Assembly: GCF_009914755.1 (NCBI RefSeq)
Contig: NC_060925.1
Source: the human T2T-CHM13v2.0 reference genome, Homo sapiens
Length of the DNA: 64,000 nt
Strand: one strand, 5' to 3'
Shown here: positions 54,050-58,413 of the stretch, one piece after another
Layout of the letters: the number at the start of each line of letters is the position of its first letter
Position numbering within the stretch: position 1 is the first letter of the stretch
Made by a program: the position numbers and the translations under genes
Notes under the pieces: generated by a model
What the model saw: only the letters and a program-made list of their open reading frames with translations
The model's database searches: none
Told to the model about the DNA's origin: nothing

Positions 54050-55823
54050 ATTATCTCTTAAAACAATTTAATATATAAATCAGAATAGATGCTCTAATAT
54101 TGACTATTTATAAAAACAACTTTTTATGAAGCCACCTCACACCACTCCTATAAATACACATGATTTTTTGATTCTTTCAAAATTATTTCATATTTAATTT
54201 GGTACGATTTTTAGGCAATAATGTAAATCGAGAGAAATTTATCAAGGCCCTTTTGCAAGATATAATGCAGACGGACATTTTTAGGAAATAAATCTGTAAT
54301 TTATTATTCCCTGTGCAGGAAGCAGAGTTCAACTAGAAGCAAATGAAAGACAATGCAAGATAATCTTACAATATTAATTCACTGTAAGCCAAGAGTGGCT
54401 TGATCTGAGATTAGGAGGAATCATATGACATTTGTTGGGTGGCAAGTATGAGGGTGAACACACCTCCAACTTATCCTTCTCCAAGAAATACAGAGCAGAC
54501 AACCTGAGATGGTACTTATTCACAATTGATGTGTGGCAGATAGAGTAATCAATCAGAAGGAGAGACTGATTGTAGCTAGCTATTAATGAGGGTAGCCATG
54601 TGGGAATAGCGTAGCTTCAGCCAGATCTGAAATCTTGCCTTGGATTCTGCTAGCTTGTAAGAAGAACCACAAATATATATACTTTCCTTTTCCTTATCTA
54701 AAAATATTTCAAACAGGTCCGGACATCTCTGAGAGAAATCTTAATAGTATTCTGAAATAGGTTCAATCTTATATAAGAATTTGATATGATAAATGTGAAA
54801 TATTTTACATTAGTGGAGATACAATGGACTTTGGGAGAATGTGCAGAGAGACTGAAAGGAGTAAGATTGCCATTTCAATAAAGAAAAGTATAATTTATTA
54901 ATATTATAGGAACTTGAGATGTAGTTATGTTGCAGGAGTTCTGGGCATGTACTCAGAGGCTTTAACATTTTCAACGATTTGCCTTGCGTGCTACACATTA
55001 TCTTCTTAAAGTAACAGGGCTTGTGACTTTGAGTGAGCAGCCATTTACGTGGTGACCTTCACAGTCATCCATTTTTACTTCTTACTATTTTCTCAACAAA
55101 TTGCATGACATGATAATGCATTATTGTTTTGGGATCACTTAGAGACTTGGATTTACACAATATAAATAAGTAGCATATTATCTTCAGGCGTTTCAGGATT
55201 TAAATTACATGACTTAGGGCTCTGAGGAGCCCATTAAGGCCTCTTAAGACCATAGAAAAACTTAATTGGATCAGAAACCCCCCATGTGGGTCATTATTGC
55301 TACGTGGATTTCTTCAGAGTCTGAAAAAGTCCTAGGGGAGAAAGACTTTGTTACTATGATAATGTGTAATTTGTAGAATCAGTTGAACCATTTTTCTCTG
55401 TGTTTGTCTTGGAAGAGTCAGTGTCTAAATCCAGTTACACGGAGGGATATAACATGGCCAAAATAATGCCTTCAGATTGTTTCCTGGCTAAAAAGTGTCT
55501 GTCCGTTCCCCTGTTGTTTAATTTCCTTGAGGTGTTCATGTCACATAAATTTGTAGGAGAAAGGTCCTGCTAGCAATGAAGTGAACCTTAACTCAAAATT
55601 AGTATTTAATGTGTGTGTGCATGTATACCAGAATTGGATCAGTAGAATTAATACAAGAAAATATAGATAATTATGCAGACAACTTTCTAGTAGATGAAGA
55701 TTTTCTAAGTATATCTCAAATATAAGCACCATGAAACATGTTTTTAAAAACATTAAAAAGATTTCTCTTTTTGAACATATCATAAAGTGAATATAACAAA
55801 AATGGATTAAAAGATTTATTATA

Positions 55824-56250
<427 letters not shown>

Positions 56251-56546
56251 TTAATCTTTCTGCTATCCACAGATGTAAGAATTAAAGTAATAATGTGAAA
56301 GTGTCTTTCTCTTACTAACTTGGTAAAGATTTTTGTAAAATGTCTAAAAATCTCATGGCAATTATTTACAGAGAAAACACATTTCTTAATTAAAGTGTGA
56401 TTTTTGGAAAATTATTTTGGGGCAAAGTTAATTTCTGCCATTAATATTTTGCATATCACTTCACCTTAAAATATAAATATAGTTTGCACAATACTGTCTA
56501 CCCAGGAGTTGAGACCATGGAGGTTTAAAGAAAGGGAAGAATAAAG

Positions 56547-57855
56547 TACAGTCAATGATAGAAAGCCTATAATGTGAGAAACTTTGGAGGGATTTGATTA
56601 GGATTCCTCTCTTTTAAAGGATACTTTTGAAAAAAACAAAACATTGCAGTTTACAATAGGCACATATGATAATCAACTATTTCAATGGTATTCAGTGTTT
56701 TAGAAAAGACCAAAGGCATGGAAGTGGGGATGCTGTTCTTAATGTCTAACAAAATATCTTAATCATCTTCTCTAATCTTCCACTATTTTCCACACAGGCA
56801 GAAGCTGCTACTTTGTAAATCAATTCCCCATTCCCAGTTCCCCACTACAGAATATTCCCCCCACATGCACCCAGCACAATGTCTTCCACTCAACAGTGCC
56901 TGACAATCTGATTCTTCCTCTCCCATTCCTGCCTTTCCTTTACTTCCACATGGCTCCTCTATTTCCCCTTCACCCTCACTCCCACTCTAGAGCCTCCATT
57001 TGTGCTCCCCACAAAAAACTTTGGAAAGTGTAGTCTGGCCTCTTACTCCAATTATTTTTCTTGGGAAAAAATTTGTCCATTTCCCAGATTCTGCACCAAA
57101 AAGGAAAGTTCAGGTGCTGACAGCCACAAAGCAAAAACCCTTCCTGAAAGGCAGAAAGAAGATAGAAAGACTTCATACTCATTAATCCTTCCTGTCCTTG
57201 CTCTGCTTCAACAGGCACTAGGCACATCTTTTCCTGTGTGCCATGCTGTGGGATTGCATAATCAGGTCAAGGAAGCTACAAGCCCCTACGGGCCATAAAA
57301 ATGTAATGCTCAACAAACACAATGCTAAAGTCTTCTCATTTCCCAAACCACGTATTCTTCCATTTGATTTGCACATGCTTCTTTCAGGAACATTTTTGCT
57401 GAAATTTTTTGGCAGGAAAAGTTAATCTTATGCTCCAAAATGTAAGACAGGAAGTCAGTTGTGGTGCTGTTGGGAAAGGGACATTTGGCCTGAACTGATC
57501 TCAATCAATGCCAGTTTTGGGTGATTCTGGAATCAGTTGATGGGGTCAGTTAGAAAAGAGCAAAACTATTTAATACAGATTTACTTGTCTGTTTGTGGGA
57601 TATCATCTCAAAATTGTAACTGGTGATATGATCTATAGAATTATTTTAAAGATCTTTCAAAAGCAAAACAGTACATGCTTCTGTTGTAGAGATCAAGTGT
57701 AAACACAAACAAGATACACAAAAATCAAAACAAGTGATCTAATATTTCACAAATGGGTACTTAATCCTTGGGATGACATTCCCAGTGATGACATAATACA
57801 TGCTGTCAATGCTATTTCTCCAACAACTTGGGTACAAATAAAGATGATGTGTTCT

Positions 57856-57887
<32 letters not shown>
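56547..57887 (+). pseudogene. L1-mediated retrocopy of a non-repeat polyadenylated sequence (processed 3'-UTR fragment or orphan 3' transduction); parent unknown
   Basis: AATAAA 57837-57842, A30 57858-57887, perfect 20-bp TSD AAAGAAAGGGAAGAATAAAG at 56527-56546 and 57885-57904, TT/AAAG endonuclease site. Confidence 0.85.
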
Positions 57888-57889
<2 letters not shown>

Positions 57890-58110
57890 AAGGGAAGAAT
57901 AAAGAGAAAAAGAAATAGCCCTTTCTTCTGAGCATAGTTAGCTCATGGAAAACCTGAACAGTTAACCATAAATAAAATATTTTTTTGAGAAAAACAAAAC
58001 ATGTGGGCGTGTGTGGTTTGTGTGGGGTGTGTGTGTGCACGCGCATGCAGGCATGTTTCCTATGTTTCTAGGTCACATTTAATTTTGAAATTCGCAATTG
58101 CCAAAATCTT

Positions 58111-58413
58111 TTTTCTTTTTTTTTGAGATGGAGTCTTGCTCTGTCGCCCAGGCTGGAGTTGTAGTGGTGCGATCCTGGCTCACTGCAACCTTGCCTCCTG
58201 GTTCAAGCAATTCTCTTGCCTCAACCTCCCGAGTAGCTAGGACTACAAGTGTGCACCACCGCACCTGGCTAATTTTTGTATTTTTAGTAGAGACGGGGTT
58301 TCACCATGTTGGCCAGACTGGTCTTGAACTCCTTGGCCAGATGATCTTGAACTCCTGGCCACCTGGGCCTCCCAAAGTGCTGGGATTACAGGTGTGAGCC
58401 ACCGCGCCCGGCC
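58111..58413 (-). mobile_element. AluS with internal duplication/deletion
   Basis: TSD CAATTGCCAAAATCTT. Confidence 0.93.

What the first reader, a model, noticed from the sequence alone, without database searches (positions are those of the whole stretch)
56527..57904. Hidden 1.34-kb retrocopy of a cellular transcript 3' end, with perfect 20-bp TSD and A30 tail
Seen: a non-repeat-looking block ends in AATAAA, then 15 nt, then 30 uninterrupted A's. The 20-mer AAAGAAAGGGAAGAATAAAG occurs identically on both sides (56527-56546, 57885-57904), and the left copy follows TTT. Known: these are the hallmarks of L1 target-primed reverse transcription (TT/AAAA-type nick, TSD, polyA). Inference: the block is a processed 3'-UTR copy or an orphan L1/SVA 3' transduction. 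The intact TSD and pure tail suggest it is young and possibly presence/absence polymorphic. No ORF is recognisable, so ORF- and repeat-based annotation would miss it. I could not identify the parent gene.
Basis: partly seen in the sequence, partly recalled or inferred. Interest (0 to 1): 0.8.

Follow-up and report, generated by a model that had tools for sequence, protein, structure and literature searches.

The report
Old inverted retrocopy of chr7 transcript
This is an ordinary but neatly preserved L1-made copy of the last 1.3 kb of an unspliced chromosome 7 transcript, whose front 915 bases were pasted in backwards, and it looks millions of years old rather than recent.

Summary
An exact 20-bp duplication (56527-56546, 57885-57904) brackets a 1311-bp block that ends in AATAAA, 15 nt and a run of 30 A's. 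The last 3 A's are shared with the right repeat.

The only other copy in this assembly is at chr7:24,577,102-24,578,415. It has no A-tail and no flanking repeat, so it is the source. It lies between an NPY-type exon and MPP6-type L27 exons, both gene names recalled.

Bases 56547-57461 (915 bp) are antisense to the source; 57462-57857 (396 bp) are sense. The two pieces sit 9-16 nt apart on chr7. The last 7 nt of the left repeat are complementary to the source RNA exactly where the inverted piece starts, and that 7-mer occurs once in 1314 nt. This is the signature of L1 twin priming.

No intron was removed. I found no L1 or SVA in the 5.8-9.1 kb upstream of the source, so an orphan transduction is unlikely.

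The copy differs from the source at 36 of 1298 positions (2.8%) plus two indels. That suggests an insertion of roughly great-ape age, not a young polymorphic one. The source now reads AAGAAA where the copy keeps AATAAA.

This is a known kind of event and of low interest.

The parts
56524..56526 (.). TTT just left of the duplication. With the AAAG that follows it gives the first-strand nick site, 5'-CTTT/AAA-3' on the bottom strand (TT|AAAG on the top strand).
   Evidence: read directly. It is near the L1 endonuclease consensus but is not one of the three strict motifs (TTTT/A, TTTT/G, TTTC/A) counted in PMC12016303.
56527..56546 (+). Left copy of the 20-bp target-site duplication. Its last 7 nt (56540-56546, AATAAAG) also match the source and mark the internal priming site of the second cDNA.
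   Evidence: exact repeat, not expected by chance. BLAST homology to chr7 runs 7 nt into the duplication (56540-57461 = C7:24578023-24577102, minus strand); the complementary 7-mer occurs once in the 1314-nt source stretch, at this position.
56547..57461 (-). Inverted cDNA segment of 915 bp, antisense to the source transcript. It copies C7:24577102-24578016.
   Evidence: 892 of 915 identical (97.5%), no gaps, plus/minus orientation.
57462..57857 (+). Non-inverted, poly(A)-primed cDNA segment of 396 bp, sense to the source transcript. It copies C7:24578033-24578415.
   Evidence: 348 of 359 identical with one 1-nt gap. Then a 12-bp stretch present only in the chr1 copy (57821-57832). Then 22 of 25 identical up to the cleavage site.
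57837..57842 (+). AATAAA polyadenylation signal carried over from the source RNA, 15 nt before the tail. The chr7 source now reads AAGAAA at this position.
57858..57884 (+). Poly(A) tail not encoded at the source: 27 A, or up to 30 counting the 3 A's shared with the right duplication.
   Evidence: Searches show that chr7 continues past the same point as ...CTCTGC/AACACTGTGG with no A-run.
57885..57904 (+). Right copy of the 20-bp target-site duplication.

Best explanation
A polyadenylated, unspliced RNA was transcribed from the + strand of chr7 and ended at C7:24,578,415. The L1 machinery copied it into chr1q43 by target-primed reverse transcription with twin priming. Shown: the anatomy. Inferred: the order of steps that follows. 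L1 endonuclease nicked the bottom strand at 5'-CTTT/AAA. The T-rich end primed on the RNA's poly(A) tail and made the sense cDNA back to source position 24,578,033. The top strand was cut 20 bp downstream. Its 3' end (...AATAAAG) annealed to the single complementary CUUUAUU in the RNA (24,578,017-023). From there it primed a second cDNA running upstream to 24,577,102. Joining the two cDNA ends gave an insert whose 5' 915 bp are inverted. Nine nt of the RNA (24,578,024-032) are missing between the two pieces. The insert has a 27-30 A tail and a 20-bp duplication. It sits in an intron of the predicted lncRNA LOC124904565 and has no recognisable function. From 2.8% divergence to its source I infer that it is old, roughly of great-ape age, and probably fixed.
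For: The 20-bp duplication is exact and not expected by chance. AATAAA, 15 nt and an A-run that the source lacks are all present. Whole-assembly searches with the full insert and with its 3' 396 nt each find only chr1 and one chr7 locus, 2 of 2 first-look candidates. Against 20 kb of chr7, homology outside the insert is limited to Alus and A/T runs, so this is not a segmental duplication. Window 56540-57461 matches C7:24578023-24577102 on the minus strand at 97.5%, and 57462-57820 matches C7:24578033-24578390 on the plus strand at 96.9%. The 7-nt complementarity between the duplication's 3' end and the RNA sits exactly at the start of the inverted piece, and that 7-mer occurs only once in 1314 nt. 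The piece lengths (915 and 396 bp) and the 9-16 nt gap fit published germline 5'-inverted L1 insertions. In PMC12016303 (passages and section 8 read) 46% of those had cDNA ends within 20 bp. The same paper reports 5' inversions in 3 of 23 polymorphic processed pseudogenes. Age: 36 of 1298 mismatches plus indels of 1 and 12 nt. CpG losses are seen in both copies, 2 in the retrocopy and 1 in the source, so the differences are not all reverse-transcription errors.
Against: The nick site CTTT/A is one base off the strict TTTT/A consensus. The junction between the two cDNAs (57461/57462) shows no clean microhomology; there is only an imperfect CAGTTGG/CAGCTGG resemblance. No transcript annotation for the chr7 locus was available, so the existence of the parent RNA is inferred only from the retrocopy. 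The present chr7 sequence has AAGAAA, not AATAAA, and lacks 12 bp that the copy has. The age rests on recalled primate divergence figures and on one donor locus. No orthologous site in another species could be examined.
Confidence: 0.88

Rival explanations
1. This is an orphan 3' transduction. A sense-strand L1 or SVA upstream of the chr7 donor read through into flanking DNA, and only the flanking part was inserted on chr1.
For: The insert is unspliced genomic-type sequence ending at a downstream poly(A) site, as transductions do. The 5' truncation and inversion would hide any L1 part. A donor element that was polymorphic and later lost cannot be excluded.
Against: None of the 102 ORFs of at least 45 aa in the 10 kb of L004 (the 9.1 kb upstream of the copied stretch plus its first 0.9 kb) hit L1 ORF1 or ORF2 families in Pfam; the only hit was a sub-threshold DUF4647 match. 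Tandem Repeats Finder found only an AT-rich microsatellite and no VNTR. Genome searches with the 5.8 kb upstream returned an Alu (mostly 85-88% identity) and old repeats (70-85%), and nothing with the high identity expected of a recently active L1 or SVA. Only 40 candidates were scored per search. The nearest Alu upstream is on the opposite strand.
Confidence: 0.07
2. One reading: a young insertion, possibly presence/absence polymorphic in humans.
For: The 20-bp duplication is perfect and the A-run uninterrupted.
Against: Divergence from the only donor locus is 2.77%, with two indels and CpG decay in both copies. At that divergence an unchanged 20-bp duplication has probability 0.57, so it says little about age. 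A-runs also keep themselves pure by slippage (established knowledge).
Confidence: 0.04
3. The inversion is not from twin priming. It arose later by DNA rearrangement on chr1 or on chr7, or the block is a DNA-level duplication.
For: None specific. Inversions do occur by other routes.
Against: One inversion breakpoint coincides with the 5' boundary of the insertion. There the flanking target DNA shares 7 nt with the source, at the one site in the RNA where that 7-mer exists. The inverted piece has no tail of its own. The A-tail begins at a poly(A) site and is absent from chr7. No flanking homology exists.
Confidence: 0.02

Closest known systems
L1-mediated processed pseudogenes or retrocopies with a 5' inversion (twin priming; Ostertag and Kazazian 2001, cited in PMC12016303 but not itself readable here)
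   Same: It shares the target-site duplication, the A-tail, a near-consensus endonuclease site and the sense 3' piece with an inverted 5' piece. The two pieces are nearly adjacent in the template, and the target's 3' end is complementary to the internal priming site.
   Different: The template is not a spliced mRNA of a protein-coding gene. It is colinear with intergenic chr7 DNA, so no intron loss marks it as 'processed', and catalogues built from protein-coding parents would not list it.
Orphan L1/SVA 3' transductions
   Same: Both are unique, unspliced, non-repeat sequence with a poly(A) tail and target-site duplication, mobilised by L1.
   Different: No L1 or SVA was found upstream of the donor in this assembly.
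5'-inverted, truncated L1 insertions
   Same: The inferred mechanism and geometry are the same. Published germline medians are 751 bp for the inverted piece and 571 bp for the non-inverted piece; here they are 915 and 396 bp.
   Different: The cargo is a cellular transcript mobilised in trans, not L1 RNA.

Membership tests
L1-mediated (TPRT) retrocopy | Flanking target-site duplication | tested here: met
   20-bp exact repeat with 2 matches in the window; none of 100 shuffles reached 2.
L1-mediated (TPRT) retrocopy | 3' poly(A) tail that is absent from the donor locus and starts at a poly(A) site | tested here: met
   27-30 A's lie 15 nt after AATAAA. At the same base chr7 continues as unrelated sequence, with T/GT-rich stretches 35-55 nt downstream.
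L1-mediated (TPRT) retrocopy | Insertion at an L1 endonuclease-type site (TTTT/A-like) | tested here: inconclusive
   The site is 5'-CTTT/AAA-3' on the bottom strand. It is close to the consensus but is not one of the strict motifs TTTT/A, TTTT/G or TTTC/A used in PMC12016303, which only 63-70% of real insertions met.
L1-mediated (TPRT) retrocopy | A donor locus elsewhere, with homology confined to the insert | tested here: met
   There is one donor, C7:24577102-24578415. Only Alu and A/T-run matches lie outside the insert.
Processed pseudogene in the strict sense | Introns of the parent removed; parent is a spliced mRNA | tested here: not met
   The insert is colinear with 1314 bp of chr7 DNA apart from the inversion, a 9-16 nt gap and small indels. 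No gene annotation for the donor was available.
Twin-primed (5'-inverted) insertion | 5' piece inverted and 3' piece sense, with the two adjacent or overlapping in the template | tested here: met
   The 915-bp piece is minus and the 396-bp piece plus, separated by 9 nt of template (16 nt if the 7-nt priming site is counted).
Twin-primed (5'-inverted) insertion | Complementarity between the top-strand 3' end of the target and the internal priming site | tested here: met
   Seven nt (AATAAAG against CTTTATT). This is the only occurrence in the 1314-nt template and it lies at the predicted place.
Orphan L1/SVA 3' transduction | Sense-strand L1 or SVA immediately upstream of the donor sequence | tested here: not met
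   None of 102 ORFs carry L1 domains, no VNTR was found, and the upstream repeats are an Alu and old elements only. This covers the one assembly only.
Young or polymorphic insertion | Near-identity to the donor; empty allele in other genomes | tested here: not met
   Divergence is 2.77%. The empty-allele test is not possible with these tools.

The most novel reading that the evidence does not exclude
The retrocopy may be a molecular fossil of an unannotated, germline-expressed, polyadenylated transcript from the desert between the NPY-type exon and the MPP6-type L27 exons on chr7. That transcript may have been driven from the CCAAT/GC-box CpG-rich stretch about 6 kb upstream. Its canonical AATAAA signal has since decayed at the source (now AAGAAA, with a 12-bp difference) but survives in the chr1 copy. 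On this reading the copy records the exact ancestral 3' end of a non-coding gene that has died or been rewired.
Probability: 0.35. Interest if true: 0.25.

Novelty: new member of a known kind. Interest (0 to 1): 0.15.

Why it matters
The scientific weight is small. The insert is a clean example of twin priming acting in trans on a non-L1, non-coding template, with the internal priming site still readable after several per cent of divergence. It shows that retrocopies of intergenic or unspliced RNAs exist that catalogues based on protein-coding parents and on repeat libraries do not list. It also dates germline expression of a chr7 transcript and fixes its poly(A) site. For the scan, the lesson is that a perfect target-site duplication and a pure A-tail are weak evidence of youth.

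Tried and rejected
I replaced it with 102 stop-free ORFs given as references.
- The original twin-priming paper (PMC311219) is not held. It is cited only through PMC12016303.
- The literature search for lncRNA-derived retrocopies gave 6 papers, judged off-topic from titles and abstract starts. The search for NPY, MPP6, intergenic and lncRNA gave one cattle GWAS. Neither named the parent transcript.
- Rfam gave only sub-threshold matches to Alu-type families (7SL RNA, mir-1268, mir-3135), all in the flanks, and nothing in the insert or the donor.
- The promoter/terminator scan uses bacterial consensus motifs, which do not apply here. Its counts equalled the shuffle expectation.
- The first upstream genome search was swamped by one Alu, so I repeated it on the two sides of the Alu.
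- I considered that the inverted segment might be an independent minus-strand retroelement on chr7 ending in the T23 run at C7:24576619-641. I rejected this because no flanking direct repeat was found and the copied stretch starts 460 bp from that run.
- ORFs inside the insert are at most 128 aa, and I did not search them against Pfam. Of the ORFs in the chr7 donor, those of at least 45 aa within L004 (up to C7:24578000), including a 159-aa one, had no Pfam hit.
- The mismatch spectrum shows no A-to-G excess that would point to RNA editing.

Full report
**Observation.** One search shows TTT at 56524-56526 and the 20-mer AAAGAAAGGGAAGAATAAAG at 56527-56546 and again at 57885-57904. AATAAA is at 57837-57842, followed by 15 nt and then 30 consecutive A's (57858-57887). 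The last three A's are also the first three bases of the right 20-mer, so the added tail is 27-30 A. In one search the 20-mer has exactly two matches in the window even with two mismatches allowed, and none of 100 shuffles reached two matches.

**Donor locus.** A search of the window's own assembly with the 1311-bp insert found the insert itself and one other place, on contig 7. Insert bases 1-915 match C7:24577102-24578016 on the minus strand. Bases 916-1311 match C7:24578033-24578415 on the plus strand. A second search with only the 3' 396 nt found the same two places, 2 of 2 first-look candidates.

Local BLAST gives 892 of 915 identities without gaps for the inverted piece. The first 359 nt of the sense piece give 348 of 359 with one 1-nt gap. 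The last 37 nt align once a 12-bp stretch present only on chr1 (57821-57832) is allowed for; 22 of the remaining 25 nt then agree.

At the base where the chr1 copy starts its A-run, chr7 continues as ordinary sequence with T/GT-rich stretches downstream. I compared a 6-kb stretch of the window with 20 kb of chr7. Everything outside the insert that matched was Alu or A/T runs. So chr7 is the donor, chr1 the derived copy, and the copy was made through polyadenylated RNA.

**The inversion.** The two pieces are nearly adjacent on chr7 but lie in opposite orientation on chr1. The inverted piece begins at the left duplication with the donor position closest to the sense piece (24578016).

BLAST carries the homology 7 nt into the duplication (56540-57461 = C7:24578023-24577102). 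The 3' end of the left duplication, AATAAAG, is therefore complementary to CTTTATT of the RNA at 24578017-023. That 7-mer occurs once in the 1314-nt template, at exactly this place.

This is what twin priming predicts. The top-strand end released by the second nick anneals inside the RNA and primes a second cDNA, which ends up inverted. Nine template bases (24578024-032) are missing between the two cDNAs. The internal junction (57461/57462) shows no clean microhomology.

PMC12016303 (passages and section 8 read) reports 5' inversions in 18.4% of germline L1 polymorphisms and in 3 of 23 polymorphic processed pseudogenes. In 46% of inverted L1 insertions the two cDNA ends lay within 20 bp of each other. 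Median piece lengths were 751 bp inverted and 571 bp non-inverted, against 915 and 396 bp here. The original twin-priming paper could not be opened.

**Later rearrangement as an alternative.** A later DNA inversion on either chromosome would need a breakpoint that coincides by chance with the insertion's 5' boundary and with the 7-nt match. The inverted piece has no tail of its own, so it is not a second insertion. I also checked whether it could be a separate minus-strand element on chr7 ending in the T23 run at 24576619-641. No flanking direct repeat exists there, and the copied stretch starts 460 bp away from the run.

**Nick site.** On the bottom strand the first nick reads 5'-CTTT/AAA. 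This is close to the L1 endonuclease preference but is not one of the strict motifs used in PMC12016303.

**What the parent is.**
- A Pfam Hormone_3 exon lies at C7:24423322-423. I take it, from recalled synteny, to be NPY.
- L27-domain exons on the + strand lie at C7:24761662-24787677. I take these, again from recall, to be MPP6.
- The donor lies between them, about 154 kb from the first and 184 kb from the second. By my recalled hg38 coordinates it is upstream of the MPP6 start, near hg38 chr7:24.44 Mb.
- No annotation of that region was available to me, and two literature searches did not name a transcript there.
- The copy is colinear with genomic DNA, so no splicing is recorded.
- A CpG-rich stretch with a CCAAT box and GC boxes lies about 6 kb upstream at C7:24570760-24571045. 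It is a candidate promoter, by inference only.
- Rfam finds nothing in the insert or the donor.
- ORFs inside the insert are short, at most 128 aa, and were not searched against Pfam. The donor-region ORFs within L004 have no Pfam hit.

**Transduction rival.**
- None of the 102 ORFs of at least 45 aa in the 10 kb covering the donor's upstream side hit L1 ORF1 or ORF2 families.
- Tandem Repeats Finder found only an AT-rich microsatellite.
- Genome searches with the upstream 5.8 kb returned one Alu (mostly 85-88% identity), a roughly 240-bp repeat (74-83%) and a roughly 470-bp repeat (70-78%).
- Only 40 candidates were scored per search, but a recently active L1 or SVA would have ranked first.
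- A donor element that has since been lost from the population cannot be excluded.

**Age.** Over 1298 aligned positions there are 36 mismatches (2.77%; 95% CI 1.95-3.82%; K2P 0.028; 20 transitions, 16 transversions), plus a 1-nt and a 12-nt indel. There is no A-to-G excess that would suggest RNA editing. CpG sites have decayed in both copies, 2 in the retrocopy and 1 in the donor, so the differences are not all errors of reverse transcription.

I compared this with recalled genome-wide divergences: about 1.2% for human-chimpanzee, 1.6% for gorilla, 3% for orangutan and 6% for macaque. That puts the insertion around the great-ape ancestor, give or take. At this divergence an unchanged 20-bp duplication has probability 0.57 and an uninterrupted 27-A run about 0.47 or more.

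**A small oddity.** The last 37 nt before the tail are more changed than the rest: the 12-bp indel plus 3 of 25 mismatches, P = 0.026 against the rate elsewhere. One of these changes turns the signal AATAAA (chr1 copy) into AAGAAA (chr7). Canonical signals are far commoner than AAGAAA (recalled), so the likelier reading is that the donor lost its signal after the copy was made. An outgroup is needed to settle this.

**Verdict.** The finding is real and the retrotransposition reading is right. The parent is located but not named. The insert is a twin-primed, 5'-inverted retrocopy of an unspliced intergenic transcript. It is probably old and fixed. This is a well-known kind of event and deserves a low score.

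Noticed in passing
L004:2760-3045 (C7:24570760-24571045): A CpG-rich stretch (GC 0.56-0.64, CpG observed/expected 0.74-0.78) with a CCAAT box and GC boxes abuts a 5'-truncated Alu. It lies about 6 kb upstream of the donor sequence and is a candidate promoter of the parent transcript.
   Followed up: partly
window 57821-57857 vs C7:24578391-24578415: Changes cluster at the very 3' end of the copy. There is a 12-bp stretch present only on chr1, 3 of 25 mismatches (P = 0.026 against the rest), and AATAAA on chr1 versus AAGAAA on chr7. The direction of change is unknown without an outgroup.
   Followed up: partly
L002:1018-1040 (C7:24576619-24576641): A pure T23 run lies 460 bp upstream of the copied stretch, next to old repeat-like sequence. 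No flanking direct repeat was found, and its origin is unexplained.
   Followed up: partly
window 55806-56116 (+) and 58109-58413 (-): Two Alu elements in opposite orientation flank the insertion about 400 bp and 200 bp away. The sub-threshold Rfam hits to 7SL RNA, mir-1268 and mir-3135 all fall inside these Alus.
   Followed up: no
window 58003-58050: A GT-rich, imperfect (TG)n-like microsatellite lies about 100 bp right of the insertion.
   Followed up: no
L004:541-832 (C7:24568541-24568832): An AT-rich compound microsatellite of about 290 bp, with period 12 the best-scoring among those reported.
   Followed up: no
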